From a phage: DNA of 64,000 nucleotides. The stretch is from assembly GCA_020773975.1 (NCBI GenBank), contig GCA_020773975.1_3638.1; one strand, given 5' to 3'. Numbering within the stretch: the stretch's first letter is position 1; each line of letters opens with the position of its first letter. The position numbers and the translations under genes are program-made. Shown here in pieces: positions 1 to 41,557 of the stretch. The notes beneath the pieces are model-generated. The model did not search any database. It was not told where the DNA came from and was given only the letters and a program-made list of their open reading frames with translations.

Positions 1-230
1 ACTCACAAGACCCTCCACATTTCGCCATTCAAGGCTACTCTACTCACTTCTTCACATCAGGTGAGGCTGATGCTATGCTTTCGATAGTCGTTAGAGACAA
101 TTTCTTGCCTACGGGGTTAGCTCTGCCCCAACAGGGTTTAGCCTTTCTTACCAGCTTATTGTTTATTCAGCTATGCCCGTTTAGTGGAGTTATTCGACAA
201 CCATCACTGGTTGAAGGCCCAATTGTGTCT
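1..230 (-). mobile_element. Group I intron (intron A, partial, continues past window start) interrupting nrdD
   Basis: nrdD reading frame is lost after ...SLYGTP (exon ends ~231). The region carries the rc R-like motif (tcgatagtcgttag at ~91-104) and the same family motifs as introns B-D. Confidence 0.5.
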
Positions 231-692
231 AGGCGTGCCATATAGGCTAAATGCTAAACCACTTCGCTCTTTAAAATCAGCACAAATATCCTTCATGTAT
301 TTCAAGATATTCATTGCCATCTCTTTACGAACTGGCTCACCATACAAAATTTCAACTGCTTCATAAAGACCCACGTAACCAATACTGATTGATGCGTAGC
401 CATTAAAGAAGAGTTTACTGATCTTCTCATCAGGTCCGAGCCGTGCAATAGCCCCCTCCATAAACATTGTAGGGTTCTGGGATGCTTTTACATCCATCAG
501 TCTACCGACTCTAACCATATGCGCTTTATATGCCATTTCCATGTGCTTTTCAAGCAATTCGGTAAACAGAGTTTTCTTAGATTTTGCTTCTGCTGCAATC
601 ATAGGTAAGTTTAGAGAGACAACACCAAGATTGAATCTACCATCATATTTCTCACCATGTTCTGTTACATAATAAGATAAGAAACTTCTACA
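231..692 (-). CDS. nrdD: Anaerobic ribonucleotide reductase NrdD, exon 4 (CRSFLS...AFSLYGTP)
   Basis: ORF 204..722 translation matches the NrdD C-terminal half (GVVSLNLP, SISIGYVGL, AFSLYGTP). The first 10 codons and last 8 codons of the ORF are intron read-through. Confidence 0.7.
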
Positions 693-942
693 CATTATGT
701 TCAGAGTGGTTCGCAAGTCCACCCCCGCACCACTACGTGCTGCTGCATGTCACCATGCAGATCAGACTATATCTTCACACTTGGTGTGTCTACCATTTCG
801 AGTGTCATCGGCTTACACCCTACTCCGCTACATTCATCACGGTTAGTCGTTAGGCATTTACGGTTGATACCGATTTAGCACGGGATTCCCTCCATAGAGG
901 ATTTCCCCGTTTAGGCAGATTTTACATGAGCAGCTATAGTTT
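693..942 (-). mobile_element. Group I intron B (250 nt, ORF-less, T4-like IA2 type core)
   Basis: On the minus strand: P cuaaacggggaaaucc, Q gggaaucccgug, R gccuaacgacuaacc, S gaagauauagucu. Exon ends with U and intron ends with G. Joining the exons gives ...VTSMG|CRSFLS..., as in T4 NrdD. Confidence 0.65.
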
Positions 943-1242
943 ACCCATACTTGTAACACGCCCGTCTGAAGAACCTGTTACCTTTTTATTCAACGGTACA
1001 GATATGAAATCTGGATAAATCCTTTCAACACAACACTCCATAGCTAATTGCTTTAAGTCGTAGTTTGGATCGCCAGGCTTCATGTTTACACCATCTTCCA
1101 AGAAGAAGATAACTTTTGGAAAAACAGGTGTGACTTTATCTTTGCCAAGTCCGTTTTTGTGAACAAGAAGATAATTCTTTGTAATCATTCTCCCAAAATA
1201 AGAAGTATCAAGCCCAAGACTCAAGGTAATAAATGGGCATTG
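943..1242 (-). CDS. nrdD: NrdD exon 3 (QCPFITL...VTSMG)
   Basis: ORF 934..1245 matches the NrdD central region (GLGKDKVTPVFPK, DPNYDLKQLAMEC). Confidence 0.7.
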
Positions 1243-1521
1243 CATTGCCCACTTTATGTTTCCATAAAGACAGACTATCTCTTAGCATCTCCTAGATGCC
1301 CTCTCCGTTTCGGAGTTGGTATTTCAACCAACCACTACACTACTGGGTTGTGCTTCACAAAATCCATTTCGCACCTTTTCGTTAGTCGTTACAACCGTCA
1401 AGCCAGATGCCTGACTGGTCACGGGATTAGCATAGCTCTATGCCTTAGCGTTCCCCGTTAGCCAGAATATATCTGACCCCACTTGTGTGGTTAGGAGAGT
1501 TTTATAACGGCCATTGTGTTA
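1243..1521 (-). mobile_element. Group I intron C (279 nt, ORF-less)
   Basis: In-frame stop directly after ...NTLMSANG; S-like gagauagucu and R-like aacgacuaacg on the minus strand; splice restores SANG|QCPF. Confidence 0.6.
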
Positions 1522-1890
1522 ACCGTTAGCACTCATCAAGGTATTTACCTGATAAAGCAATGTCTGCATAGCATCGTAAACATCTTTTTCCGTCATCTGC
1601 ATAGCTACACCTTCTGGGTCTGGCAGCCATTGCTCCTGACAAAATTTTAGATTTTTATCGTAGCTTGCCTTGGCATATTGTTTTAATCCTTCATCGATAT
1701 GGGTGTATGACTGCCCCCCGTACTGAGATGAAGAAACTGATTGCGATATTTGGCTAATAATTGTACAGGCAACGCCAATTGATTTGGGTTTTTCTATTTT
1801 TGCGTTGCCAATTTTAAAGCCGTTCTCCAACATATCTCTGTAATCTACAAGACTACAGTTGAAGTGCGGACTTATTAAGTAATCTAAATC
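1522..1890 (-). CDS. nrdD: NrdD exon 2 (DLDYLISPHFNCSLVDYRDMLENGF...SANG)
   Basis: ORF 1519..1833 plus its upstream in-frame extension matches NrdD (MLENGFKIGNA, KPKSIGVA, QYGGQS). Confidence 0.7.
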
Positions 1891-2220
1891 CTTGATTTTC
1901 CTACATTTTTATAGGCAATGACTATATCATAATCTCAAAAGAGATTCTCTGCTTTTCAACTGGTAGCGTCTCCAGCTTACTCCCGAAGGATAGTCGATAC
2001 ACATAACGAAGTCTCACTCAGAATTATTATCTTCACGGAGTGATACTTCGTCTTAGCACGGTATTACCTTGCCCCTTAGCCGAGGGGTTTAGGCTCCCTT
2101 ACTCATAATGCAGTCACCTGCTTCTGAACCGTTAGCACAGTTTTTACTGCACACCGCTTTGCAATCAGCGTTAACAGAGTTATTCAATACTGATCACTCA
2201 GTAAGGCCACGATGTTATTC
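1891..2220 (-). mobile_element. Group I intron D (330 nt, ORF-less)
   Basis: Frame breaks after GYGHVH. Minus strand carries R-like aucgacuaucc and S-like gauauaguc. Exon ends in U, intron ends in G. Splice restores HVH|DLDY. Confidence 0.6.
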
Positions 2221-2718
2221 ATGGACATGACCATACCCGTTTGTATGCCATTCAGCTAATTCTTTTGGTAGAATTTGAGTTAGTGAGACGTGCTTGCTAA
2301 GGATACCAGCAAGAAGATCACGATGGCTACTAACCACCCCACTTGGTTTATTAGCGTTTTCTTTAGTAAATTCATCGGCAGTTTGTTCTAAGAATCCCGT
2401 AATATCTGCAAACAGCTTTCCTTTACCTTCCCTAACGTTATCACGCGTTTTACGATATTCAATATAAGCCCGTGCAGCATTCTTGAGGTCAAGATCCATT
2501 AGTGAATCTTCCACAATGCGGTGAATATCACAAACAGCCACTTTCTCTTGTGGTGGTTCTGATTTTTCCAGAGTCCCATAGACTTGCTCGCCAACTGCAC
2601 ACGCCAGAGGATATGATTTCTCACCATAACCAGCAGCAATCAGAGCAGCTTCTGCCGCTCTAATAACTTTCACACCATCATAATCTTCTTCACGCCCATC
2701 ACGTTTAACAACTTTCAT
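2221..2718 (-). CDS. nrdD: NrdD exon 1 (N-terminal ATP-cone region)
   Basis: MKVVKRDGREE... ATP-cone-like N-terminus, then RDLLAGILSKH...GYGHVH matching the NrdD N-terminal domain. Confidence 0.7.
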
Positions 2719-29415: not shown

Positions 29416-29488
29416 GGCCCCTTAGCTCAGTGGTTAGAGCAGGTGACTCATAATCGCTTGGTCGCTGGTTCAAGTCCAGCAGGGGCCA
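29416..29488 (+). tRNA. tRNA-Met (anticodon CAT; could be initiator, elongator or lysidine-modified Ile2)
   Basis: Cloverleaf by eye: acceptor ggcccct/aggggcc, anticodon loop cuCAUaa, T-loop ttcaagt, 3' CCA encoded. Confidence 0.75.
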
Positions 29489-29543
29489 CCAAATGTGGCA
29501 CACGAAATAAACTAGGTTTATTGTTTTCGGAGGAGAAAACTTA

Positions 29544-29867
29544 ATGGCTAAGAAACAGTCTGCTAAAAAGGTATCAGCTATCGAGGCGATCAAGCAACCT
29601 TTTCAGTTTGAATCAAAATCCACGCAGACACATTCTGCACCGCACGATGTGCGTCTTGGTGGCAAAACGCAAACTGTAGCAGTTCTGAAAAAACGCAAAG
29701 ATGAAGACGGTAATACTGAAATGTATTATGAATCTGTGTCTCGTGTCATTGGTGGTGAAGTGATTTCTGCTTCCTATCGTATCCGTACTGGGAAAACAAA
29801 GCGTGAACGAGAAGTGAAACAGAAAACAAGCACTCCTGTAGAAAACGTTAAGAAAACTAAAAAATAA
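29544..29867 (+). CDS. Hypothetical basic protein
   Basis: ORF with RBS; lysine-rich. Confidence 0.35.
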   Translation: MAKKQSAKKVSAIEAIKQPFQFESKSTQTHSAPHDVRLGGKTQTVAVLKKRKDEDGNTEMYYESVSRVIGGEVISASYRIRTGKTKREREVKQKTSTPVENVKKTKK

Positions 29868-29943
29868 TTTACTGACGAGAGTGCCACCGTGAGCCAGCGT
29901 CATTAAACAAAGGGAATCACGGACATTCAGGAGGGTTGAGATT

Positions 29944-30138
29944 ATGATAGGATCTTTGCTTAAGATTGCAAGCGATGTAACAACAACGGCTGTTGAAGTG
30001 ACTGCTGCGGTAACAACTCCGTTTGTTGATTTAGCATCAGATGCTATAGCAGCAGCAGCAGACGAGATGATTTTGTCACCGACATCTGATCTTGTCCAAG
30101 ATCTTTGTGATTCTATAAAAGATGCTGTAAAAGATTAA
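29944..30138 (+). CDS. Hypothetical small protein
   Basis: ORF only. Confidence 0.3.
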   Translation: MIGSLLKIASDVTTTAVEVTAAVTTPFVDLASDAIAAAADEMILSPTSDLVQDLCDSIKDAVKD

Positions 30139-30211
30139 AATTTTTCTTGACATAGTTTTTGTTTTTCTGTATAGTTACTTTATCAAAGCTAATTTACATA
30201 TGAGAGATTGA

Positions 30212-30859
30212 ATGTCTACTAAGATTTCCGTAACTCGTGCACTTGCTTCTATCTCTAAGATTGAAGATAAGATCAATAAGCGTATTTATAACCTTGAATG
30301 TATTAAGATTGCAAAAGGAACTGAGAATAATTGTAAGATTCCTGGTTATATCGGCTCTGTTGATGATTTTAAGAAATCTGCGATCAACGACTATCAAAGT
30401 CTGCAAGACCTCTTGGCAGTTCGCGATGAACTGAAGGCAAAAATTGTCAAGTCTAATGCTGAGACAATTGTCAAAATTGGTAAGGTGTCTATGACAGTTG
30501 CTGAGGCAATCGAACGCAAACGGACGATTTGCTTTAAACAAGAGTTGTTAAACAAACTTTGTGCACAGCGTGCTTCTGCACAGCTTCTTCTGGCAAAAGA
30601 AGAAAAATCTCTGGAAGATAAACTTGAAAATGCCAGAGCGCCATATATCCAACGTGATAAAGCGCCAGATGCAGAGCAGATTAAGACTGTGGAAGCTCCC
30701 ATTCGAATGATGAACACACCATCGGTTGTGGATCCTCTTGAACTGGCTTCTAAGATTCGTTCTCTTGAAGAAGAGATTGAAGATTTCTTGTCTAACGTTG
30801 ATTTTGCGTTGTCTGAGTCAAACGCTAAGACAGAAATTGAGATTGAGCACTCTCTCTAA
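30212..30859 (+). CDS. Hypothetical protein (coiled-coil)
   Basis: ORF only. Confidence 0.35.
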   Translation: MSTKISVTRALASISKIEDKINKRIYNLECIKIAKGTENNCKIPGYIGSVDDFKKSAINDYQSLQDLLAVRDELKAKIVKSNAETIVKIGKVSMTVAEAIERKRTICFKQELLNKLCAQRASAQLLLAKEEKSLEDKLENARAPYIQRDKAPDAEQIKTVEAPIRMMNTPSVVDPLELASKIRSLEEEIEDFLSNVDFALSESNAKTEIEIEHSL

Positions 30860-31224
30860 AAGGCTCTGATAATATCATTATCGTTCCTTTGTTTTGAAAT
30901 TTAAAACATTGCTTTTGATTAACGAAGTTTACATCATCTTGCCTCCTGGGGATTGGAGGTTAAATATTCCCCACCATGTATCGTATATGTATGAGGATAA
31001 TACAGGACATAGATGCAGCGAGGCACACTAAGATGCCTTGTTGTTTCTACTAAGTAAAAGTTCATACAATAAAGGTCAATGGTCAAATGTAAAAGATGAA
31101 ACTTGAAAGTTAATTCTTGAAAGATAAAATTTCGTTTATCATCTGAAATCCTTGGCACAGGTTATGGCTCACAAGATATGGTCTGTAAAGCCTCAAGGCT
31201 GTTAATCGGAAGCAATGTCTTATT

Positions 31225-31296
31225 GCTCGTATAGCTCAACGGTAGAGCACCTGCCTTGTAAGCAGGGGGTTGCAGGTTCGAAACCTGCTGCGAGCA
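31225..31296 (+). tRNA. tRNA-Thr (anticodon TGT)
   Basis: Anticodon loop cuUGUaa, T-loop ttcgaaa, CCA encoded. Confidence 0.7.
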
Positions 31297-31301
31297 CCAA
31301 T

Positions 31302-31398
31302 GCTGGGTAAGCCCCTTGGCAAGGGCGAGGATTTATAATCCTGAAAATAGACGGGCTAGCCGTTGAATACATAGGTGGTTCGATTCCATCGCCCAGCT
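31302..31398 (+). tRNA. Atypical tRNA-like gene (~97 nt; canonical acceptor and T-arm, anticodon not confidently assignable)
   Basis: Acceptor gctgggt/gcccagc and T-arm ggtgg-ttcgatt-ccatc are canonical; the central region holds the palindrome aggatt-TAT-aatcct and a hairpin acgg-gctag-ccgt. Confidence 0.35.
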
Positions 31399-31598
31399 AC
31401 AAGTTTGTTTTATAGTGTATTAGCTTATATTATTCGATATAAATGCCTGATCAGCATTTGTTGGGAATGAGGCATACAATGCGTGAGAAAGCTATCGGTG
31501 CGCAACGTTGATTTCAAACGTATTCATGCTCGTAGAGCACCAACTGTGGAAGTTGGGGTGAGGTTGAGTAACCATACACTATAAAGCATTCTTATTCT

Positions 31599-31672
31599 CG
31601 GGGTGTAGCTCAGTTGGATAGAGCAGCGGCCTTCTAAGCCGTAGGTCACAGGTTCGAATCCTGTCTCCTCGA
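31599..31672 (+). tRNA. tRNA-Arg (anticodon TCT)
   Basis: D-arm tagctcagttggatagagca, anticodon loop cuUCUaa, T-loop ttcgaat, CCA encoded. Confidence 0.7.
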
Positions 31673-31751
31673 CCAGATTAACCCCAACTTGAGAATCGTC
31701 AGCGCGGCTCGTAAGACCCACTCTATAGGTTCTCTACTCGGGGTACTTATT

Positions 31752-31825
31752 GCACGGTTGCCGGAATTTGGTTACGGGTCTGTCTGCAAAACGGATATAT
31801 GTCGGTTCAAGTCCGACACCGTGCT
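31752..31825 (+). tRNA. tRNA-Cys (anticodon GCA)
   Basis: Acceptor gcacggt/accgtgc, anticodon loop cuGCAaa, T-loop ttcaagt, CCA encoded. Confidence 0.6.
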
Positions 31826-31865
31826 CCAAACTTTCAATTTCTTGGTAAATATGTTAAAATACCAC

Positions 31866-31894
31866 TTGACAGATATGTTTTTATTTGATAATAT
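31866..31894 (+). promoter_or_regulatory. Sigma70-like promoter (TTGACA-17-TAATAT)
   Basis: Near-consensus hexamers with 17 bp spacer ~20 nt upstream of the RBS/ATG at 31914. Confidence 0.55.
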
Positions 31895-31913
31895 CATTAA
31901 GTGGGGTTTTAAA

Positions 31914-32261
31914 ATGGCTACCAAGCAGCTTACAAAACGTAGAAGAGGAAAAGGTCGTCCTCTGAAAGAGGAATCTAATGCAATTCAGTTAGAGAAAAAT
32001 ATCCTAGATTTGAAAACGAATCTGATTGCAATGATTCCTGAAGCTCATCAGGTTCTTAGGGATTTGATGAAGAATGTGAATACAAAAGACAATATCAGAG
32101 AAAATATCGCTCGTTATGTTATTGAGAAAGGTGAGCAGATGCTTTCTGATTACTTTGATGAGGAAAACGAAGAGTTACTCGAAAAAGATAACTCAGAAAA
32201 AGCTCCTATTAAGGCAGCTAAACCATTCTCGACGGATATTGTTCAATTCAAACAAGGTTAA
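31914..32261 (+). CDS. Hypothetical basic protein (115 aa) inside the tRNA array
   Basis: ATG with upstream promoter; the longer ORF-track start at 31689 overlaps tRNA-Cys and is rejected. Confidence 0.4.
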   Translation: MATKQLTKRRRGKGRPLKEESNAIQLEKNILDLKTNLIAMIPEAHQVLRDLMKNVNTKDNIRENIARYVIEKGEQMLSDYFDEENEELLEKDNSEKAPIKAAKPFSTDIVQFKQG

Positions 32262-32262
32262 T

Positions 32263-32349
32263 GTGTCGTTAGACCGTAGGGGTAGCTGGGGAGACTGTAA
32301 ATCTCCTGTCTCGAAAGGGACTCGGGTAGTTCGACTCTATCACGGCACA
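32263..32349 (+). tRNA. tRNA-Tyr (anticodon GTA), class II with long variable arm
   Basis: Anticodon arm ggaga-cuGUAaa-tctcc, variable arm, T-loop ttcgact, CCA encoded. Confidence 0.65.
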
Positions 32350-32420
32350 CCAACTGAATCTGTACTGGCTTTGATGTGTGACGATACCCTCCAATCGTGG
32401 TTGTTGGGCCAGTACAGTTT

Positions 32421-32493
32421 GGGAGTGTAGATCAGTTAGTAGATCGCTCGACCGATAATCGAGAGGACGTAGGGGCAGAGCCTACCACTCCCA
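32421..32493 (+). tRNA. tRNA-like, apparent anticodon GAT (Ile), with non-canonical T-loop (possible pseudo-tRNA)
   Basis: Acceptor gggagtg/cactccc, anticodon arm ctcga-ccGAUaa-tcgag (C33), T-arm gtagg-GGCAGAG-cctac lacks the TTCRA consensus. Confidence 0.4.
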
Positions 32494-32501
32494 CCAAATA
32501 T

Positions 32502-32573
32502 GCATCCATAGTTTAATTGGGAAAACTACAGCCTTCCAAGCTGAAGTCGAGGGTTCGATACCCTCTGGATGCT
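32502..32573 (+). tRNA. tRNA-Gly (anticodon TCC)
   Basis: Acceptor gcatcca/tggatgc, anticodon loop cuUCCaa, T-loop ttcgata, CCA encoded. Confidence 0.65.
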
Positions 32574-32687
32574 CCAGTTAAAAGATGTCAATGAAATCCG
32601 CTTGGGTCAACTGAAGACCGTAACAAATTCCATGGTGTTGTGTTTGCGGTCCAACACCAGACATCTTCTATCTATGTACAGGCTTGA

Positions 32688-33251
32688 GTGCGTATGAGAT
32701 ACTTGAAATATTTATCGTGGATTCTGTTAGCACCTCTTGACCCAATTATGTCGGTTCTATGTGTTATTCTGGCTCCTTTTGTTGTTCCGTTCTATAATGA
32801 GAAGACAGGGCATCTACCTTATATTTTCAGGTGGATGGAAACATATGATAATCCTATAGATGGTGACAGAGGACACATAGAGAGATGGGAAGAAGTCCGT
32901 AAAATAGGAAGTTTTGGTGTTTACCTACAACGAGTTGCTTGGTTGTGGAGAAATAAAGCCTACAATTTTTCCTATCACGTACTTGGACGTGAAATCACAT
33001 CTGTGACAAAGTGGAAAGGAAACATCCATGTAAGCTCTGATGTGGAGGATAATCAACAAGGCTATTTGTTGATGTGGAATGACAATGCGTGGGGTGTATT
33101 CGCGTTTGTCCCGTCTTTTAGATTGTTTGGAAAACAATTTTACTGGCGAATTTATGTCGGTTGGAAACTGAAGAGTGTGGTTCCTGAAGACAGAGCTTTT
33201 TCAAGAGAGAGAGTGATGTTGGCATTTTTCATAAGTCCTTTCCGAAAATAG
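32688..33251 (+). CDS. Hypothetical membrane protein inside the tRNA array
   Basis: N-terminal hydrophobic helices (LSWILLAPLDPIMSVLCVILAPFVVPF); 187 aa. Confidence 0.4.
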   Translation: MRMRYLKYLSWILLAPLDPIMSVLCVILAPFVVPFYNEKTGHLPYIFRWMETYDNPIDGDRGHIERWEEVRKIGSFGVYLQRVAWLWRNKAYNFSYHVLGREITSVTKWKGNIHVSSDVEDNQQGYLLMWNDNAWGVFAFVPSFRLFGKQFYWRIYVGWKLKSVVPEDRAFSRERVMLAFFISPFRK

Positions 33252-33256
33252 TTTTT

Positions 33257-33336
33257 AATGAGAGTAGCGTAACTTCACTGGGTGAAGGCTGGCCTCCAAA
33301 ACCAGTGACTAAGAGGTTCGATTCCTCACTCTCGTG
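33257..33336 (+). tRNA. Non-canonical tRNA-like gene with apparent 8-bp acceptor / 4-bp T-stem, 6-bp D-stem; possible anticodon CCA
   Basis: Hand fold: acceptor atgagagt/actctcgt, D hairpin cttcac-tgg-gtgaag, anticodon arm gctgg(c)-cuCCAaa-(a)ccagt, T-arm gagg-ttcgatt-cctc. No CCA encoded. Confidence 0.35.
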
Positions 33337-33340
33337 CAAA

Positions 33341-33413
33341 AGGGGATTAGCATAGTGGCCTAATGCAACGGGCTTTGACCCCGTGATCGGTTGTTCGAAT
33401 CAACCATCCCCTG
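33341..33413 (+). tRNA. tRNA-Gln (anticodon TTG)
   Basis: Acceptor aggggat/atcccct, anticodon arm acggg-cuUUGac-cccgt, T-loop ttcgaat, CCA encoded. Confidence 0.7.
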
Positions 33414-33425
33414 CCAAGTTAAAAC

Positions 33426-33512
33426 GGAGAAGCAAATCGATTGGCGACGAAAACACATTGGAAATGTGCTGACTGGTAAAACGGATTGAGAGTTCGATTC
33501 TCTCCTTCTCCG
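33426..33512 (+). tRNA. tRNA-Ser (anticodon GGA), class II
   Basis: Acceptor ggagaag/cttctcc, anticodon loop uuGGAaa, long variable region, T-arm gagag-ttcgatt-ctctc, G73, CCA encoded. Confidence 0.6.
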
Positions 33513-33549
33513 CCAGTTTTTAATTACTAAGGTATTGGAAGATTAACCC

Positions 33550-33627
33550 TAATTTGGTAAGGGGTCTCCCTGCTGAGGAGATAGTAACCCAGAAATGGGT
33601 GTGACAGTTCGATTCTGTCAGCCTCCT
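33550..33627 (+). tRNA. tRNA-like element with canonical T-arm, acceptor 3' strand and CCA but non-canonical 5' half (GNRA hairpin where the anticodon arm should be)
   Basis: T-arm gacag-ttcgatt-ctgtc, then agcctcc-t-cca; upstream hairpin accca-GAAA-tgggt. The 5' boundary is uncertain. Confidence 0.3.
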
Positions 33628-33857
33628 CCAAGTTATCTTTAATGTAGCTTGTTATTCTTACTTTAGCAGAGTAAATCTTCGGCAAGTGGCGGTAACCACT
33701 TTACCGATACCCCAGAGCAGTCCGCTCTTTACTGGCGTAAGTCAAACACTCATGATGGTCATGTAATCGTAATCTATCATTAGTGTGCCCTCCCTAGAGG
33801 GCTGTTGCGTATAGCTAATTATGTGCGAGTAATTAGCTATTTTAAAGATAATTTAAA

Positions 33858-33931
33858 GGATCTGTAGCCAAATGGTTTAAGGCACTCGACTTTTAATCGA
33901 GGGATTGTTAGTTCGAATCTAACCAGATCCA
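33858..33931 (+). tRNA. tRNA-Lys (anticodon TTT)
   Basis: Acceptor ggatctg/cagatcc, anticodon arm ctcga-cuUUUaa-tcgag, T-loop ttcgaat, CCA encoded. Confidence 0.75.
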
Positions 33932-33953
33932 CCAAAATATTCTGGTTCTTTGA

Positions 33954-34041
33954 CCGAGTGGTCGATGGTGACGGCCTGTTAAGCCGTTGGGAGGAATCTC
34001 CCCACCGAAGGTTCGAATCCTTCAGGAACCGCCAATTCTTG
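33954..34041 (+). tRNA. Class II (Ser-like, long variable arm, G73) tRNA carrying apparent anticodon GTT (Asn codons)
   Basis: Acceptor ggttctt/aggaacc, D-arm acc-gagtggtcgat-ggt, anticodon arm acggc-cuGUUaa-gccgt, variable hairpin gggag-gaat-ctccc, T-arm gaagg-ttcgaat-ccttc, G73, CCA encoded. Confidence 0.5.
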
Positions 34042-34120
34042 ACTTAATCAAGTCACAGATATCACCTAGCCAGCGATACCAGTTAGTAGATTCTGGGACA
34101 ATTAAAATCTACATCTCTCT

Positions 34121-34195
34121 CTGTCCGTAGCGCAGCTTGGGTAGCGCGGGTCACTTGGGATGATCAGGTCGTTGGTTCAAATCCAACCGGACAGA
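34121..34195 (+). tRNA. tRNA-Pro (anticodon TGG)
   Basis: D-arm gcgc-agcttgggta-gcgc, anticodon arm ggtca-cuUGGga-tgatc, T-loop ttcaaat, CCA encoded. Confidence 0.7.
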
Positions 34196-34240
34196 CCAAC
34201 AAACATATACATATCAAAGCAGAAATGTACAGAGGATACC

Positions 34241-34432
34241 ATGTTAACAGTTAAAGTCGTATCTCCAAATGATGAACAAATTTTTTGTGGCAAAATTGTT
34301 GGGTATTGTGCTCATCAAAAGTCTATAGCTATTTCAGGTATTGACCAAAAAGTGTTTTTGTCTGAGGATCAGACAGCTTATGTTATCAATGCCAATGGGA
34401 AAACTATTTCTGTGTATCGTGGAAAACCATAA
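34241..34432 (+). CDS. Hypothetical small protein (63 aa)
   Basis: ATG with SD agagga; the longer ORF-track start overlaps tRNA-Pro and is rejected. Confidence 0.35.
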   Translation: MLTVKVVSPNDEQIFCGKIVGYCAHQKSIAISGIDQKVFLSEDQTAYVINANGKTISVYRGKP

Positions 34433-34446
34433 CTGTTGATATAAAT

Positions 34447-34520
34447 GGGCGATTGATGGAATTGGTATACATGTCAGGCTTAGAACCTGAATTTTGGGGG
34501 TTCGAGTCCCTCATCGCCTA
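34447..34520 (+). tRNA. Class I tRNA with apparent anticodon TAG (Leu codon CUA) but no long variable arm; A73
   Basis: Acceptor gggcgat/atcgcct, anticodon arm tcagg-cuUAGaa-cctga, 5-nt variable loop, T-arm ggggg-ttcgagt-ccctc, CCA encoded. Confidence 0.5.
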
Positions 34521-34528
34521 CCAATCAT

Positions 34529-34601
34529 GTGACGGTAACTCAGTTGGTAGAGTGCCTTGCTGAAGACTAGGTGGTCACAGGTTCGAACCCTGTCCGTCAC
34601 A
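34529..34601 (+). tRNA. tRNA-Phe (anticodon GAA)
   Basis: Acceptor gtgacgg/ccgtcac, D-arm actc-agttggta-gagt, anticodon loop cuGAAga, T-loop ttcgaac, CCA encoded. Confidence 0.7.
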
Positions 34602-34610
34602 CCAAATTAT

Positions 34611-34686
34611 TGCAGAGTGGTGGAAATGGATTTACCATGTTAGGTTCATACCCTGAAGATTGCAGGTTCGACTCCTGCCTCTGCAT
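34611..34686 (+). tRNA. Second CAT-anticodon tRNA (Met or Ile2)
   Basis: Acceptor tgcagag/ctctgca, anticodon arm ttagg-uuCAUac-cctga, T-loop ttcgact, CCA encoded. Confidence 0.6.
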
Positions 34687-37494: not shown

Positions 37495-38823
37495 TTGAGT
37501 AAAGTATTTGGACCTGCCAGTCCTAAACAAAAAATGATTTTGGAGAGTAAAGCCCAAATTCTAATAATTGGCGGGGCCGCCGGGTGTTTGTCTAAAGACC
37601 ACGAGGTGTTGACACCATCTGGCTGGATTAAGATATCAGAATGGTCAGGGCAGGACATTCTGCAATATGATAAAGCCACTGGGGAGGCTAAATTTATCCC
37701 TCCTTTAGAGTTTGTTAAACTCCCTTGCGACAAACTTACAAGAATAGAAGGTAATGGCATTTGTCAAGAGCTATCTGACGAACATACTGTGATTTATAAA
37801 CCAGACTATAAATCACAGCCAAGAACACTTTCTTTTTCTGAAGTGGCAGAAAGACATAACAACTCTGTTAAAAAAGGTTGGACAGGTAAGTTCATAACTA
37901 CATTTAACTATGATGGGCCTGGGATAGACATGACAGAAGGGGAATTAAGGCTTCAGGTTGCTGTCATGGCTGATGGGAGAGTTGTTAAAGAAGGGAAAGA
38001 TAATTATACACAGATGCGCTTTGCTAAAAAGCGTAAATATGACCGCTTAATCGAACTTTGTAAAAAGTTTGGATTAAGATATGAAGACAGAGGATCAAAA
38101 CCCAGTGAAAGATATACCACTGGGGAACAGTACGAGGTCATTGTATGGCCTAAATATCCTGATAAAAAATTTACAGAGAAATACTATCAGTGTTCAAATG
38201 AACAACTGGAGATAATACTTGATGAGATTTTTCATTGGGATGGTTCTTTTTGTAAGCCATATGGCGGTAAAACACATAACAGCTTTACAGGTAGATATTT
38301 TACTGCTCATAAGACGAACGCTGATTTTATTCAGTTTGTAGGATCTTCTCTTGGTTATAATACCACCATAAGCCATGACACAAGAAGTGGAAAGGACAGT
38401 TATACTGTTAATATTATGGCTAGAGGAAAAGGATTAAGGTCACTGGCTAATAAAGACAGAAAAGCTGAGTTTAAAGCGTTTACACCTACGGATGGGTTTA
38501 AATACTGCTTTGTAACACAAACAGGTTTCTTTGTTACCAGACTGGAAGATTGTGTGGTTGTCACTGGGAATAGTGGAAAATCATATCTCCTACAATTGAT
38601 GCCGCTTGCTTATGTCGATGACCCGCAGACAGCATGTATAATGTTTCGTAGGACAACACCTCAATTGACAGGTGCAGGTGGACTTTTTGATACAGCGAAA
38701 AGTATTTATTTGCAACTCGATAAGGAATGGAAGCCGAAGTTCAGGGAGAAAGCTCTGGAAGCAATTTTCCCATCTGGGGCAAAGGTGTTGTGGAGACACA
38801 TGGAGTATGAGAATAACAAATTA
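37495..38823 (+). CDS. terL: Terminase large subunit, exon 1 (contains an in-frame intein; 3' boundary ~38806-38823)
   Basis: Walker A GAAG|SGKSY restored across the intein; then ...AIFPSGAKVLWRHMEY. TTG start after GGAGG. ORF continues as intron read-through to 38841. Confidence 0.65.
37585..38571 (+). mobile_element. Intein in terminase Walker A motif (329 aa, LAGLIDADG-like domain)
   Basis: Starts Cys (CLSKDHEVLTPSGW), ends ...CVVVTGN followed by Ser. Removal gives a perfect P-loop GAAGSGKS. Confidence 0.7.
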
Positions 38824-39081
38824 GATCATCAGGGTGAATAGCTTGCCCTTCGTGCCTATAACGGTGGAACTCCCTATGGGAAAATACCGTGCCACAGAAT
38901 ATGGAAATATAAACTCTGGGTGTAACGACTATCTCCGATGAGTGTAGGAGAGTAGAATCACAAGCGATTGGTGATCCAAACGGCACGCCAAGGATGGAAG
39001 ATATAGTCTGTTCCACATGGAAACATGTGGCGGGTGTTTTAGCACACCGCCTCAGTGTAGCGAACTGAGGGGACAATAAGT
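38824..39081 (+). mobile_element. Group I intron 1 in terL (~260 nt, ORF-less; boundaries +/-17 nt)
   Basis: R-like guguaacgacuaucu (~38918) and S gaagauauagucu (~38998). The frame resumes in ...QYTFIGFDEG (Walker B-like). Confidence 0.55.
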
Positions 39082-39111
39082 TGCAATATACCTTTATAGG
39101 TTTCGATGAGG
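39082..39111 (+). CDS. terL: Terminase large subunit, micro-exon 2a (Walker B region ...QYTFIGFDEG)
   Basis: In-frame segment between two intron cores encoding a hhhhDE Walker B-like motif; stop follows within 6 codons unless spliced. Confidence 0.45.
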
Positions 39112-39462
39112 GTAGAACAGTGTGCTCTCTATAAACCCCTTTAATTGACGGGTAACTCTTTATACATATCACCACTAAGTAGGTATGGTAACATATTTAT
39201 GGTCAACGGTAATGACGTTGAGTATAGTAACAGTGTGAATGTTTAGACAATCCGCAGCGAAGCATCCCTACGGGATGAACGTTCAACGACTATCGCTTAC
39301 GGGCGTTAGGGCCAAGCGGTGAGGGAAACCTCCGGTTGATTATCAACCGCCGAAACAGGGGGGTGTGTAATAACACACAAGATATAGTCTGATCTGCATG
39401 GTGACATGCAGCAGCACGTAGTGGTGCGGGATAAGAGTAGCGATCTTATCTGAACAAAAACG
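39112..39462 (+). mobile_element. Group I intron 2 in terL (~351 nt, ORF-less)
   Basis: Q aauccgcagc (39246), R guucaacgacuaucg, S aagauauagucu (39381), then the shared block cugcauggugacaugcagcagcacguaguggugcggg. Ends in G before ACA CAA TTC... Confidence 0.6.
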
Positions 39463-39752
39463 ACACAATTCACATGGTCACAGATAGATTATCTGATATC
39501 TCGTCTACGTTCAAACTCTAAATATCCGAGCAGGATGGTTATCTCTTGTAACCCTGATCCAGATCATAAGATCAAGGAGTTGATTTCTTGGTATTTAGAT
39601 GATGAGGGATATCCTATACCTGAACGCGATGGGGTGATTAGATGGTTTATAAGACGTGACGGGGAGTTTATCTGGGGTGAATCAGAGCAAGAATTAATTG
39701 AAAAGTATTGGGATGGCAAGGATGAGAAAAGAAAGCCTAAACCACTTTCATT
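39463..39752 (+). CDS. terL: Terminase large subunit, exon 2b (TQFTWSQIDYLISRL...VISCNPDPDH...)
   Basis: Spacing and residues between Walker B and the SCNP motif mirror T4 gp17 (DE-x28-TTTPNG). ORF 39535..39846 is the tail of this exon plus intron read-through; 3' boundary +/-6 nt. Confidence 0.5.
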
Positions 39753-40755
39753 TTCCTTCATTTCCGCAACCATTAAAAGAATAGTGGCTTCATGCAGTAA
39801 TGCATGTCGAATAACTTCGTTAATTGCTGGGAAACCCTTTGTATAAGGGCAATCAGCAGCTATAATTACTTTTCCGAAACTGTAGTAGGGAGAATGTTTG
39901 AGATGAAAAATTTAGGATTTTTAGGGTATTCCCATTATTGTGCGACGTATGATGGAAGAATTTATAGTTTGTATTCCCACAAATTTTTACATCCTAATGT
40001 CCATAAGAAAACTGGCTATGCAATGTTAACGTTGTGTGAGGATGGTAAAAAGTTTCAAGTTCTTGTCCATAGGGTTATTGCTTTTGCTTTTGTCGAGAAT
40101 GATAGCCCTGATACAAAAACTCAAGTGAACCATTTAGATGGAAACAAACTTAATAACGCAGCGTGGAATCTTGAGTGGACAACTGCAAAGGAAAACACAC
40201 ATCACGCACATGAAATAGGGCTTAAGAAGTCTTATGTAAACAGTTACAGGCCTCTTGATGATAACACTGCCCTTGAGATATGCAGATTACTTGAGCAGGG
40301 TGCTAGAGTAAAGGATATCAGTGAGATGTTTGGTATTGGGCAGACTGTGGTTAGTAGTATCAAAGCTGGGAGAGTCTACCCAGACATTTCTAAAGAGTTT
40401 AATTTCAGGATGGTTCCTTCTTCCAACAGAATTAGTGAATCCAAAGTTATAGGGATATGTGAAGATCTGAGAGACGGTATCCTAAGCATTAATAAGATAT
40501 CTAAAAAATGGGGTGTTAGTTTTAATCTTGTTAGAAGAATAAAAGATAGAAAAACTTACATCTATATCTCAAACAACTATGAATGGTAATGTAGTTCAAC
40601 GACTATCCCGCAAGGGAGTAGATCGCAAGCTAATGGCGTTCGAAAAGCGAAGCACCCATTATGTGTGGGTGGTGATATAGTCTACTCTGCATGGTGACAT
40701 GCAGCAGCACGTAGTGGTGCGGGGGTTGGCGTTGCGTCCAACCTTGAATACAAGG
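39753..40755 (+). mobile_element. Group I intron 3 in terL (~1 kb) carrying an HNH homing endonuclease ORF
   Basis: P aauugcugggaaaccc (39822), Q aaucagcagc (39851), ORF in a peripheral loop, R guucaacgacuaucc (~40596), S gauauagucu (~40674), shared P9 block, ends in G. Confidence 0.6.
39894..40589 (+). CDS. Intron-encoded HNH homing endonuclease
   Basis: HNH motif QVNHLDGNKLNNAAWNLEWTTAKENTHHA plus C-terminal helix-turn-helix-like repeats; lies inside intron 3. Confidence 0.65.
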   Translation: MFEMKNLGFLGYSHYCATYDGRIYSLYSHKFLHPNVHKKTGYAMLTLCEDGKKFQVLVHRVIAFAFVENDSPDTKTQVNHLDGNKLNNAAWNLEWTTAKENTHHAHEIGLKKSYVNSYRPLDDNTALEICRLLEQGARVKDISEMFGIGQTVVSSIKAGRVYPDISKEFNFRMVPSSNRISESKVIGICEDLRDGILSINKISKKWGVSFNLVRRIKDRKTYIYISNNYEW

Positions 40756-41557
40756 ATTCGATAATCCTCCCATGCTGGAGAATAACCCAGATTATCTAGC
40801 ATTCCTTGAAGGTCTTCCAGAGGTAGAAAAAGCCCAGTTGTTGCATGGGAACTGGAACGCAAGACCTGAAGGGGCAAACTATTTCCAGAGATCTTATTTA
40901 AAAGAGGTTCCCTGCTTACCTCTCGGTGTTGTATCTGTTCGCCCGTATGATAAAGCAGGTACAGAAAGAACATCTGGAAACAGATATCCTGACTTTACAG
41001 CATCTGTTAAGGTAAGTAAAGACAATGATGGCTTTTACTACTTGTCTGGTGATTATTGTCCTGAATTTTTTGATGATGGTAGATATTCGACTCAAACGCA
41101 GGGAAGATTCTGTAAAAAAGCTGGGGAACGTGATGTTATCATTAAGAAACAGGCTTATTTTGATGGTGATGATGTCACTATAATTTTCAGTGTTGACCCA
41201 GGACAAGCAGGAATAAGTGAATTTTTAACAAGCTCTCGTGAACTAATAGCGGAAGGGTTTACAGTAGAAAAAGATCCTACACCAAGCAATAAATCAAAAT
41301 TAACACGATTCACACCGTTTGCAAAACTTGCTCAAGCAGGTATGGTGAGAATAGTTCGTGATAGTTTTGATCCTAAAACTTATGAAGCCCTTATGACAGA
41401 GCTTGAAAAGTTCAATGGGGAAAGGAGTACGACGACAAGAAAAGACGATTGGGTCGACGCCATTTCTTCTGGGATAAATTATCTTGAAAAAGAAGAAATA
41501 GTCAAACCTGTTGTTATTCCAAAAATTGTAGCTCCTACCTTGTATAAAAGAATATAA
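40756..41557 (+). CDS. terL: Terminase large subunit, exon 3 (C-terminal nuclease domain)
   Basis: ...FDNPPMLENNPDYLAFL..., IIFSVDPGQAG and RKDDWVDAISSGINY are typical RNase H-fold terminase nuclease motifs. Confidence 0.6.

What the first reader, a model, noticed from the sequence alone, without database searches (positions are those of the whole stretch)
37495..41557. Large terminase gene interrupted by one intein plus three group I introns, with a micro-exon encoding Walker B
The ATPase P-loop is split by a 329 aa intein (GAAG|intein|SGKSY gives GAAGSGKS). Downstream the frame is interrupted three times by sequences with canonical Q/R/S elements. Between introns 1 and 2 lies a ~30 nt micro-exon encoding ...FIGFDEG, the Walker B motif. 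Intron 3 carries an HNH homing endonuclease. An essential packaging ATPase therefore depends on four independent splicing events.
Basis: partly seen in the sequence, partly recalled or inferred. Interest (0 to 1): 0.85.

Follow-up and report, generated by a model that had tools for sequence, protein, structure and literature searches.

The report
Phage terminase gene: intein plus three introns
The DNA-packaging motor gene (terL) of this rV5/Av-05-like coliphage is interrupted by one protein-splicing intein and three self-splicing group I introns, one pair leaving only a 33-base exon that encodes the ATPase Walker B motif; every part is of a known kind, but this dense a combination in one terminase gene is not annotated or described in what I searched.

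Summary

**Structure.** Removing three intervening RNAs and one in-frame 329-aa insert gives an in-frame 2487-nt mRNA.
- Intron 1: 38836-39080
- Intron 2: 39114-39462
- Intron 3: 39774-40755
- Intein DNA: 37585-38571

**Product.** The 499-aa mature protein aligns gap-free, end to end, with the uninterrupted 499-aa TerL of Salmonella phage SPLA5a (86% identity). All four junctions fall in conserved sequence.

**Boundaries.** Natural alleles fix two introns to the base: Av-05 lacks intron 1 and the TH18 group lacks intron 2. Between them lies a 33-nt exon encoding LQYTFIGFDEG (Walker B).

**Introns.** All three match Rfam Intron_gpI, at 33.9, 67.9 and 31.6 bits. Only intron 2 passes the curated cutoff of 50. 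Each follows a U in a U•G P1 pair and ends in G. Intron 3 carries an HNH ORF.

**Intein.**
- It has Cys1 and a C-terminal Asn followed by Ser.
- Its AlphaFold model (pLDDT 90.7) matches PI-SceI-type and VMA inteins.
- Relatives sit in the P-loops of unrelated ATPases.

**Novelty.** Introns 2 and 3 occupy the same sites as the two published rV5 terL introns. The intein and intron 1 are present but unrecognised in GenBank relatives. I rate it a new member of a known kind. Splicing itself is inferred, not shown.

The parts
37495..37584 (+). terL exon 1, N-extein part (TTG start; MSKVFGPASPKQKMILESKAQILIIGGAAG, first half of Walker A)
   Evidence: ORF. GGAGG lies 4 nt upstream of the TTG (alignment). 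The N-terminus aligns with SPLA5a, KpS8 and isim TerL.
37585..38571 (+). Intein coding sequence, 329 aa (Cys1 ... VVVTGN, followed by Ser+1), with a two-motif LAGLIDADG endonuclease domain (LRLQVAVMADGR, LEIILDEIFHWDGS)
   Evidence: Absent from SPLA5a, KpS8, isim and rV5 TerL, and its removal restores GGAAGSGKS. C1 and H67 are invariant in 18 homologues. Homologues sit in P-loops of unrelated ATPases. The AF2 model has pLDDT 90.7. Foldseek top hits are the TliVMA intein (8e-14), PI-SceI and PI-PfuI, with I-DmoI for the middle domain.
38572..38835 (+). terL exon 1, C-extein part (SGKSYLLQ...NKLDHQG), ending CAGGGU at the 5' splice site
   Evidence: Av-05 reads CAGGGT directly into TTGCAG. Protein alignment.
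38836..39080 (+). Group I intron 1 (245 nt, no ORF); P1 is AGGGU|GA...UUGCCCU with U•G at the splice site, and the intron ends in G
   Evidence: Precisely absent in Av-05. Rfam Intron_gpI 33.9 bits, E 4.7e-6, below the cutoff of 50. The MFE fold recovers P1. Cognate exon-end/guide duplex is -6.9 kcal/mol.
39081..39113 (+). Micro-exon 2, 33 nt, LQYTFIGFDEG (Walker B hhhhDE)
   Evidence: Bounded by the Av-05 (no intron 1) and TH18 (no intron 2) alleles. F126, D127, E128 and G129 are invariant in the TerL alignment. An identical sequence with both flanking introns occurs in Logan contig SRR16760863_75.
39114..39462 (+). Group I intron 2 (349 nt, no ORF); P1 is GAGGGU|...GCUCUC, and the intron ends in G
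   Evidence: Rfam Intron_gpI 67.9 bits, above the cutoff of 50. Precisely absent in TH18. rV5 has an intron at the same site with the same guide sequence GCUCUC but a different P1 loop.
39463..39773 (+). terL exon 3 (TQFTWSQIDYL...SFSFISATI, includes the VISCNP coupling motif), ending ACCAU
   Evidence: TH18 junction. Terminase_6N match. Alignment.
39774..40755 (+). Group I intron 3 (982 nt) with the HNH ORF placed between the 5' core elements and the R/P7 element; P1 is CCAU|...GUGG, and the intron ends in G
   Evidence: Rfam hits on the 3' half at 40513-40704 (31.6 bits, E 2.2e-5) and the 5' half at 39764-39971 (21.4 bits). rV5 has an intron at the same site, with an A-U to G-C compensatory change in the P2 hairpin. 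The spliced junction ACCAT|ATTCGAT matches isim ACAATATTCGAT. A 1-nt alternative placement gives the same protein but breaks the terminal-G rule.
39903..40589 (+). Intron-encoded HNH homing endonuclease ORF (228 aa from the ATG at 39903; the longest ORF starts at 39804)
   Evidence: Pfam HNH_3 2.9e-7, 30.4 bits against a cutoff of 24.8, plus weak helix-turn-helix matches. Annotated as an HNH homing endonuclease in TH18 and rV5.
40756..41557 (+). terL exon 4 (FDNPPMLENNPDYL... to the stop codon; nuclease domain)
   Evidence: Terminase_6C 1e-7. 100% identical to the Av-05 exon. Alignment.

Best explanation
This is the single, functional terL gene of a Vequintavirinae coliphage, colonised by four selfish self-splicing elements. 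All four sit at the most conserved sites of the ATPase domain.

**RNA step.** The pre-mRNA carries three group I introns. Each is expected to excise itself by the standard guanosine-initiated two-step transesterification. That joins exon 1, the 33-nt Walker B micro-exon, exon 3 and exon 4 into a 2487-nt reading frame.

**Protein step.** The 828-aa translation product carries a 329-aa class-1-like intein inside Walker A. Protein splicing (Cys1 acyl shift, Ser+1 transesterification, Asn cyclisation) should release it and ligate GGAAG to SGKS. The result is a 499-aa TerL.

**Mobility.** The intein's LAGLIDADG domain and intron 3's HNH enzyme are the likely homing nucleases that spread these elements during co-infection. 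Introns 1 and 2 have no ORF and must rely on co-conversion or nucleases acting in trans.

**Shown versus inferred.** Shown: the anatomy, the boundaries, conservation of the spliced product, and family and fold assignments. Inferred: that each splicing reaction actually occurs and is efficient.
For: - **Reading frame.** The in-silico spliced mRNA is in frame (2487 nt), and the mature product is 499 aa.
- **Collinearity.** The product aligns without gaps to SPLA5a TerL (499 aa, 86% identity) and also to KpS8 and isim. The junction sequences GGAAG|SGKS, HQG|LQYTF(I/V)GFDEG|TQF and SATI|FDNP are conserved.
- **Family.** Pfam on the spliced product gives Terminase_6N at 1.3e-24 over residues 24-281 and Terminase_6C at 1e-7. 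The unspliced first fragment gave no hit.
- **Independent elements.** Alleles differ in which elements they carry:
  - Av-05 lacks intron 1.
  - TH18, 18-1-2, 19-1-2 and 24-2-1 lack intron 2.
  - rV5 has only introns 2 and 3.
  - SPLA5a, KpS8 and isim have none.
- **Intron features.** All three introns hit the Rfam group I model. Each follows a U paired with G in P1 and ends in G.
- **Intein fold.** The AF2 model has pLDDT 90.7 and matches endonuclease-bearing inteins with Foldseek E-values of 8e-14 to 1e-9.
- **Intein distribution.** Family members occur in primase-helicase, PhoH-like, RtcB, RecD-like and RNR genes of 226 phage records. They also occur in the P-loops of unrelated ATPases, all ending (T/I)(G/Q)N followed by S or C.
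- **Experimental precedent in relatives.** The HNH intron in terL of the Vequintavirinae phage CB7 splices in vivo by RT-PCR and sequencing (PMC7344957). Mycobacteriophage TerL inteins splice efficiently (PMC5050341).
Against: - No transcript or protein data exist for this phage.
- Introns 1 and 3 score below Rfam's gathering cutoff (33.9 and 31.6 against 50).
- Pfam detects no intein domain, and LAGLIDADG_3 reaches only E 0.17.
- The intein's penultimate residue is Gly, not the usual His.
- No record in the phage collection carries introns 1 and 2 together.
- IMG/VR holds no exact match to a 46-nt probe across the intron 1 / micro-exon / intron 2 junctions.
- The only other instance is a Logan contig that might derive from the same sample as the window.
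- Exon skipping has been seen in other multi-intron phage genes (PMC11878797). Splicing may therefore not be fully faithful.
Confidence: 0.88

Rival explanations
1. Decayed copy: the locus is a terL pseudogene overrun by mobile elements, and a functional TerL is encoded elsewhere in the genome.
For: The gene is broken into four pieces. GenBank annotators of near-identical phages left it as three separate 'terminase large subunit' CDSs. Only 64 kb of the genome is visible.
Against: - The exons carry no stop or frameshift.
- The spliced product is gap-free and 86% identical to an intact TerL, with all catalytic motifs.
- No second terL is in the window.
- The partial (77-kb) record of the near-identical phage 19-1-2 holds only one terL place.
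- The gene sits in the conserved position between the spanin genes and the gene downstream of terL, as in rV5 and KpS8.
Confidence: 0.03
2. Fragmented gene without splicing: the pieces are translated as separate polypeptides that assemble non-covalently, as for Aeromonas phage Aeh1 NrdA split by mobE.
For: A precedent for non-spliced split phage genes is cited in PMC7344957. In CB7, one HNH-associated interruption did not splice in that study.
Against: - The 33-nt Walker B segment has no start codon or ribosome-binding site, so it could not be expressed alone.
- Exon 3 and exon 4 begin upstream of any ATG.
- All three interruptions carry group I catalytic cores with correct U and G splice-site nucleotides.
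- A Walker A motif split by 329 aa would not bind ATP.
Confidence: 0.03
3. Assembly chimera: introns 1 and 2 come from two co-occurring phage variants (TH18-like with intron 1, Av-05-like with intron 2) and were joined across the short shared micro-exon, so no single genome carries all four elements.
For: - No record in the phage collection has both introns.
- An exact 46-nt probe across the junctions finds nothing in IMG/VR.
- Repeats in these introns do break or scramble assemblies: the Av-05 record has an inverted segment, and the Logan contig ends in the shared hairpin.
Against: - An assembled Logan contig is identical through intein, intron 1, micro-exon and intron 2.
- The window's micro-exon has CAA where both TH18 and Av-05 have CAG, so it is not a simple splice of those two types.
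- The 33-nt exon is far shorter than a sequencing read, so reads would span both junctions.
Confidence: 0.04
4. Partly defective or regulated splicing: one element (for example sub-threshold intron 1, or the intein with its Gly-Asn terminus) splices poorly, or the micro-exon is often skipped, so that only a fraction of transcripts yields active TerL.
For: - Exon skipping was the dominant in vitro product for SIOphi terL and was seen in Twort orf142 (PMC11878797).
- Exon 1 ends CAGGGU and can pair with intron 2's guide sequence (-3.9 kcal/mol, against -7.4 for the cognate exon 2 end).
- Skipping 33 nt stays in frame.
- The micro-exon can fold on itself (-6.3 kcal/mol).
Against: - TerL is essential, and this architecture persists with intact exons.
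- Cognate P1 pairings are stronger than the skipping pairing.
- The TGN terminus is conserved across the whole intein family, so it is unlikely to be a defect.
Confidence: 0.15

Closest known systems
Escherichia phage rV5 terL (ORF64ABC, NC_011041; Kropinski et al. 2013, PMC3606486)
   Same: The TerL is orthologous (69% identity). It has two introns at exactly the sites of window introns 2 and 3. The first has the same guide sequence GCUCUC, and the second carries an HNH ORF.
   Different: rV5 has no intein and no intron 1, and therefore no micro-exon. Its first exon runs uninterrupted from Walker A through Walker B.
Mycobacteriophage TerL inteins (Kelley et al. 2016, PMC5050341)
   Same: These inteins sit in the TerL ATPase domain, most commonly in the Walker A P-loop. 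They were shown to splice, and some have active endonucleases. Splicing is considered necessary for the active site and for pentamer assembly.
   Different: - The P-loop inteins there are in terminase_1 proteins, inserted between Lys and Thr or one residue away. Here the host is a Terminase_6N protein and the site is GAAG|SGKS.
- The intein family is different, ending TGN.
- No introns are reported in the passages I read.
Multi-intron phage genes: Twort orf142 (three group I introns, exon skipping; Landthaler & Shub 1999) and Bastillevirinae terL and DNA polymerase (PMC11878797)
   Same: Two or three group I introns occur in one phage gene, including terL. A small internal exon lies between two introns (phiNIT1 RNR). 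Exon skipping occurs.
   Different: These are Gram-positive phages with unrelated TerL lineages. No intein shares the gene, and the small exon is not reported to encode a catalytic motif. The Twort paper itself could not be opened; I cite it through PMC11878797 and from my own knowledge.
Genes carrying both an intein and a group I intron: SPβ nrdE (cited in PMC3653736) and Pectobacterium phage CB7 nrdA and nrdB (PMC7344957)
   Same: RNA-level and protein-level self-splicing elements coexist in one essential phage gene. CB7 belongs to the same subfamily, and its terL HNH intron splices in vivo.
   Different: The host genes are ribonucleotide reductases, with one intron plus one intein each. CB7 terL has only the single HNH intron.
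crAss-like phages of the Delta and Zeta groups (Yutin et al. 2021, PMC7886860)
   Same: Core genes are densely infested: an MCP gene is split into five fragments, with three of the four intervening segments encoding domains typical of group I introns. TerL carries two inteins.
   Different: These are uncultured Bacteroidetes phages with alternative genetic codes. Introns and inteins are not reported together in terL.

Membership tests
Group I intron (Rfam RF00028): intron 2 | Covariance-model match to the catalytic core at or above the curated threshold | tested here: met
   67.9 bits against a gathering score of 50, covering the full model 1-253. The P1 in that alignment is misplaced.
Group I intron: introns 1 and 3 | Covariance-model match to the catalytic core at or above the curated threshold | tested here: inconclusive
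   33.9 bits (E 4.7e-6) and 31.6 bits (E 2.2e-5), both below the cutoff of 50. Intron 3 is penalised by its 687-nt ORF insert. Both carry the conserved R (GUUCAACGACUA-like) and S (AAGAUAUAGUC) elements.
Group I intron: all three | 5' splice site after a U that forms a U•G wobble in P1 with an internal guide sequence, and a 3'-terminal G | tested here: met
   - Intron 1: AGGGU/GCCCU.
- Intron 2: GAGGGU/GCUCUC, conserved in rV5.
- Intron 3: CCAU/GUGG, conserved in rV5.
- All three introns end in G.
Group I intron: all three | Precise removal restores an uninterrupted, conserved reading frame; intron-less alleles exist | tested here: met
   Av-05 lacks intron 1, TH18 lacks intron 2, and isim, SPLA5a and KpS8 lack all three.
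Group I intron: all three | Guanosine-dependent self-splicing | not testable with these tools
   Needs in vitro transcription with GTP, or RT-PCR from infected cells.
Intein (Hint domain with nested homing endonuclease) | In-frame insertion at a conserved site, absent from orthologues; N-terminal Cys/Ser; C-terminal Asn followed by Cys/Ser/Thr | tested here: met
   GGAAG|C...N|SGKS. The insert is absent in four orthologues. Cys1 is invariant in 18 homologues. All readable homologues end N followed by S or C.
Intein | Block B (T/S)xxH with a conserved His | tested here: met
   SDEH at intein residues 64-67, with H67 invariant. It aligns to the SPNH of the AceL NrdHF intein.
Intein | Penultimate His (block G, HN) | tested here: not met
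   The terminus is TGN, and (G/Q)N throughout the family. From my own knowledge, penultimate His is common but not universal in active inteins.
Intein | Hint fold | tested here: met
   The AF2 model has pLDDT 90.7 and pTM 0.89. Foldseek against the PDB gives TliVMA intein 8.3e-14, PI-SceI 5.7e-12 and PI-PfuI 3.7e-10, all at probability 1.00.
Intein | Match to curated intein sequence profiles (Pfam) | tested here: not met
   No Pfam intein or Hint family was reported even at E <= 10. Only LAGLIDADG_3 appeared, at E 0.17. The best PDB sequence hit is the AceL NrdHF intein at E 0.09.
Intein | Same element found in unrelated host proteins (mobility) | tested here: met
   Homologues occur in primase-helicase, PhoH/AAA_19, DnaB/KaiC-like, RtcB, RecD-like and RNR genes, and in other terminases.
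Intein | Protein-splicing activity | not testable with these tools
   Needs expression (for example an MBP-intein-GFP reporter) or mass spectrometry.
LAGLIDADG homing endonuclease (intein-nested) | Two LAGLIDADG motifs with acidic residues, and an alpha-beta-beta-alpha-beta-beta-alpha fold | tested here: inconclusive
   - Motifs LRLQVAVMADGR and LEIILDEIFHWDGS are present.
- The middle domain matches I-DmoI, I-SceI and I-Tsp061I at Foldseek E-values of 5.5e-6 to 3e-4.
- The Pfam match is only E 0.17.
- Av-05 and P0016 have lost the first half-domain.
Terminase large subunit (Terminase_6N / Terminase_6C) | Profile matches above the curated cutoffs; Walker A, Walker B and nuclease domain in one polypeptide | tested here: met
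   On the in-silico spliced protein, Terminase_6N scores 87.5 bits (cutoff 22) and Terminase_6C 32.5 bits (cutoff 22.6). GAAGSGKS and FIGFDEG are conserved.
HNH homing endonuclease (intron-encoded) | HNH motif profile match above the cutoff, and location inside an intron | tested here: met
   HNH_3 scores 30.4 bits against a cutoff of 24.8. The ORF at 39903-40589 lies within intron 3 (39774-40755). Nuclease activity was not tested.

The most novel reading that the evidence does not exclude
The 33-nt Walker B micro-exon, flanked by two self-splicing introns whose 5' exon ends are nearly identical (CAGGGU and GAGGGU), may act as a cassette. Intron 2's guide sequence could capture the end of exon 1 and skip the micro-exon. 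Skipping stays in frame and would produce a TerL that lacks only Walker B. Such an ATPase-dead subunit could poison or time the pentameric packaging motor. Together with the GTP-dependent introns and the P-loop intein, terL expression would then be gated at several post-transcriptional and post-translational steps, rather than merely parasitised.
Probability: 0.06. Interest if true: 0.75.

Novelty: new member of a known kind. Interest (0 to 1): 0.45.

Why it matters
**Annotation.** Near-identical GenBank phages (TH18, 18-1-2, 19-1-2, 24-2-1, Av-05) list this gene as two or three separate "terminase large subunit" CDSs. The intein and intron 1 go unrecognised there, so the correct gene model is worth recording. 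terL is also a standard marker for phage phylogeny and packaging-type prediction. Fragmented or intein-bearing models distort both uses.

**Biology.** This is a compact natural example of four selfish elements stacked in one essential ATPase domain. Each is polymorphic among close relatives, at Walker A, on both sides of Walker B, and at the ATIFDNP junction. That makes it a convenient system for three questions:
- homing and co-conversion between co-infecting coliphages;
- mobilisation of introns that lack an ORF;
- fidelity of splicing around a very short exon.

It does not reveal a new mechanism.

Tried and rejected
- **Pfam on the raw first ORF** (448 aa) returned nothing. Pfam on the isolated intein gave only LAGLIDADG_3 at E 0.17. 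Intein identity therefore had to come from structure prediction and distribution.
- **PDB sequence search with the mature TerL** found nothing at E <= 0.01. The Walker B assignment rests on the hhhhDE pattern, its invariance in the alignment, and the Pfam Terminase_6N alignment.
- **Rfam's P1 for intron 2** (ACCUUUAU/AUGAGGGU) was rejected. It puts the splice site on the wrong strand of the helix, and the TH18 allele fixes the junction after GGGU. The alternative GAGGGU/GCUCUC is conserved in rV5.
- **IMG/VR scan** for an exact 46-nt probe across the intron 1 / micro-exon / intron 2 junctions gave 0 hits.
- **Using Av-05 to test intron 3** failed. That RefSeq record starts inside intron 2 and has the exon 3 segment inverted.
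- **The Twort orf142 paper** (PMC22036) is not held.
- **Intron 3 boundaries.** An alternative placement one base to the right gives the same protein. I rejected it because the intron would then end in A.
- **HNH as a packaging cofactor.** I considered that the HNH ORF might be a terminase-associated packaging factor (the HK97-type HNH cited in PMC7344957). I rejected this because the ORF lies inside a group I intron and is absent from intron-less relatives.

Full report
**What is there**

The window is a Vequintavirinae-type coliphage. The region is 98.6% identical to Escherichia phages vB_EcoM_TH18, 18-1-2, 19-1-2 and 24-2-1, and 98% identical to Av-05 where they overlap.

On the + strand between 37495 and 41557, ORF listing shows three long TerL-like fragments and an HNH ORF. 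Pfam assigns Terminase_6N to the middle fragment, Terminase_6C to the last, and HNH_3 (30.4 bits, cutoff 24.8) to the ORF at 39804-40589. It finds nothing in the 448-aa first ORF.

Rfam finds Intron_gpI above its curated cutoff at 39086-39411 (67.9 bits). A focused scan adds three further matches:
- 38780-39030 at 33.9 bits, E 4.7e-6;
- 40513-40704 at 31.6 bits, E 2.2e-5;
- a weak 5' half at 39764-39971.

The R-like and S-like core elements each occur three times, once per intron.

**Exact boundaries from natural alleles**

- **Intron 1.** Av-05 reads ...GATCATCAGGGT directly into TTGCAGTATACC.... This defines intron 1 as 38836-39080 (245 nt), after a U and ending in G.
- **Intron 2.** TH18 reads ...GATGAGGG(A) directly into ACACAATTC.... 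This defines intron 2 as 39114-39462 (349 nt), which equals the 349-nt length difference between the two loci.
- **Micro-exon.** Between them lies a 33-nt exon, 39081-39113, TTGCAATATACCTTTATAGGTTTCGATGAGGGT, encoding LQYTFIGFDEG.
- **Intron 3.** It is placed at 39774-40755 (982 nt). The placement follows the U and G rules, the P1 pairing CCAU/GUGG, and the match of the spliced junction ACCAT|ATTCGAT to intron-less isim (ACAATATTCGAT). A one-base shift would give the same protein but a terminal A.

Joining the four exons gives 2487 nt, in frame.

**The spliced and intein-free product is a normal TerL**

Removing the 329 aa between GGAAG and SGKSY gives 499 aa. tblastn finds the uninterrupted TerL of Salmonella phage SPLA5a as a single 499-aa, gap-free match at 86% identity. 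Uninterrupted homologues also occur in Klebsiella phage KpS8 and Escherichia phage isim.

In the four-way alignment the junction contexts are conserved: GGAAG|SGKS, HQG|LQYTF(I/V)GFDEG|TQF and SATI|FDNP. F126, D127, E128 and G129 (Walker B) are invariant.

Pfam on the reconstructed protein gives Terminase_6N at 1.3e-24 across residues 24-281, and Terminase_6C. No other terL or intein copy is in the window.

**The introns**

Each intron follows a U that can wobble-pair with a G in a guide sequence a few bases downstream.
- Intron 1: AGGGU/GCCCU, recovered by the MFE fold.
- Intron 2: GAGGGU/GCUCUC.
- Intron 3: CCAU/GUGG.

rV5 has introns at the intron 2 and intron 3 sites with the same guide sequences. 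Its P1 loop differs, and there is an A-U to G-C compensatory change in the intron 3 P2 hairpin.

Rfam's own P1 for intron 2 lies within the micro-exon and is incompatible with the TH18 junction, so I reject it. Cognate exon-end/guide duplexes are -6.9 and -7.4 kcal/mol for introns 1 and 2.

All three introns have extra sequence between the R/P7 element and P3' in the Rfam alignments. From my own knowledge this is the P7.1/P7.2 position typical of subgroup IA2 phage introns. That is an inference, not a test.

The HNH ORF probably starts at 39903, as annotated in TH18, and ends at 40589. It sits between the 5' core and the R element of intron 3.

**The intein**

Sequence profiles barely see it. 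Pfam gives only LAGLIDADG_3 at E 0.17. The best PDB sequence hit is the AceL NrdHF intein at E 0.09, over block B. Four other lines of evidence support it.

1. **Junction chemistry.** It has Cys1, a C-terminal Asn and Ser+1, and block B reads SDEH.
2. **Conservation.** In an alignment of 18 homologues, C1 and H67 are invariant.
3. **Distribution.** Homologues sit in the P-loops of unrelated ATPases (PhoH/AAA_19, DnaB/KaiC-like, primase-helicase, SNF2-like) and in other terminases. All end (T/I)(G/Q)N followed by S or C. tblastn finds the family in 226 phage records, within primase/helicase, RtcB, RecD-like, PhoH-like and RNR genes.
4. **Fold.** An AlphaFold2 model built from that alignment has mean pLDDT 90.7. 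Its best PDB matches are endonuclease-bearing inteins: TliVMA 8.3e-14, PI-SceI 5.7e-12 and PI-PfuI 3.7e-10. I-DmoI-type LAGLIDADG enzymes match the middle domain.

The penultimate residue is Gly rather than His across the whole family. Av-05 and a large metagenomic cluster (P0016, 432 members) carry a 240-241-aa version that has lost the first LAGLIDADG half-domain. This is the expected decay stage of a homing element.

**Distribution of the four elements**

| Phage | Intein | Intron 1 | Intron 2 | Intron 3 |
|---|---|---|---|---|
| SPLA5a, KpS8, isim | no | no | no | no |
| rV5 | no | no | yes | yes |
| TH18 group | yes | yes | no | yes |
| Av-05 | short form | no | yes | not determined (record scrambled) |
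| Window | yes | yes | yes | yes |

Each element is therefore independently gained or lost.

The 33-nt micro-exon region of TH18 differs from the window at five synonymous positions, against 98.6% identity overall. The Gly codon is GGT only in alleles that carry intron 2. This fits co-conversion of flanking exon sequence, guide-sequence matching, or both.

No record in the phage collection has introns 1 and 2 together, and an exact 46-nt junction probe finds nothing in IMG/VR. A Logan assembly contig (SRR16760863_75) is identical from the intein through intron 1, the micro-exon and intron 2. It ends in the hairpin shared by introns 2 and 3. I cannot exclude that this contig comes from the same sample as the window.

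**How it most likely works**

The gene is transcribed as one pre-mRNA. Three group I ribozymes excise themselves. Translation gives an 828-aa precursor. The intein then splices out of Walker A to give a 499-aa TerL.

The anatomy and homology are shown. The reactions are inferred from family membership and from experiments on relatives. The terL HNH intron of the Vequintavirinae phage CB7 splices in vivo (PMC7344957). Bastillevirinae terL introns splice in vitro and in vivo (PMC11878797). Mycobacteriophage TerL inteins splice efficiently (PMC5050341).

**Rivals**

- A pseudogene with a functional copy elsewhere.
- Unspliced fragments that assemble non-covalently.
- An assembly chimera.

Each is disfavoured for the reasons given under the rival explanations. 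A more realistic caveat is imperfect splicing around the micro-exon. Exon skipping is documented for SIOphi terL and Twort orf142. Exon 1's end can also pair, more weakly, with intron 2's guide sequence (-3.9 kcal/mol).

**Comparison with what is known, and novelty**

- Kropinski et al. described rV5 terL as divided into three segments, with a homing endonuclease in one intervening sequence (PMC3606486). Those introns are orthologous to introns 2 and 3 here.
- TerL P-loop inteins are well known in mycobacteriophages.
- An intein and a group I intron coexist in SPβ nrdE and in CB7 nrdA and nrdB.
- Genes with three introns and small internal exons are known in Twort and Bastillevirinae.
- crAss-like phages show comparable densities of such elements.

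What appears undescribed in the searched literature and unannotated in GenBank relatives is threefold:
- the intein and intron 1 in Vequintavirinae terL;
- the resulting four-element architecture;
- a 33-nt exon that carries exactly Walker B.

I rate it a new member of a known kind. It has moderate interest, mainly for annotation and as a tractable homing and splicing model.

Noticed in passing
window 204-2718 (- strand): An nrdD-like (anaerobic ribonucleotide reductase) gene is broken into at least four ORF pieces. Rfam group I intron matches lie at 743-981 (74.7 bits), 1252-1531 (41.3 bits, E 2e-8) and 1899-2230 (21.7 bits, E 0.015). This is probably a second gene in the genome with up to three group I introns.
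   Followed up: partly
window 39379-39430, 40674-40723 and ~724-775 (- strand): A 52-nt 3' module (P7' through the P9 hairpin and beyond: AAGATATAGTCTGATCTGCATGGTGACATGCAGCAGCACGTAGTGGTGCGGG) is 100% identical between terL intron 2 and the nrdD intron, and 96% identical in terL intron 3. This suggests recent common origin or recombination between introns in different genes.
   Followed up: partly
L003 and L007 (Av-05, NC_025830: record start, and 120303-120938): The Av-05 RefSeq record is opened inside the intron 2 P9 hairpin. The exon 3 segment lies in inverted orientation, with a 'terminase large subunit' CDS on the opposite strand. This is most likely a misassembly at the hairpin repeated in introns 2 and 3. 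The Logan contig also breaks at the same hairpin.
   Followed up: partly
L003 3186-3908 (Av-05) and protein P0016: A shorter allele of the same intein (240-241 aa) lacks the first LAGLIDADG half-domain and the second motif's DG. It is a degenerate endonuclease form with identical splicing ends, and cluster P0016 has 432 member sequences.
   Followed up: yes
window 39081-39113 versus L001 (TH18): Five synonymous differences are concentrated in the 33-nt micro-exon region between the window (intron 2 present) and TH18 (intron 2 absent), against 98.6% identity overall. Alleles with intron 2 (window, Av-05, rV5) have GGT at the splice site, while alleles without it have GGA or GGC.
   Followed up: partly
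window 37585-38571 (intein blocks F and G): The intein family has a conserved Cys in block F (KYCF) and a Thr three residues from the end (VTGN). Its nearest solved sequence relative is the class-3 AceL NrdHF intein, yet Cys1 is invariant. The mechanistic class cannot be settled from sequence.
   Followed up: no
window 29416-34686 (+ strand): A cluster of 15 tRNA genes lies upstream of the lysis and terL region, as in rV5.
   Followed up: no
L001 (TH18, ON075799) and OK136180, OK181858, OK181861: GenBank annotation of these near-identical phages lists terL as three separate 'terminase large subunit' CDSs, with no intein, intron or join feature. tblastn also reports a second, more distant place matching the intein elsewhere in those genomes, which I did not examine.
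   Followed up: no
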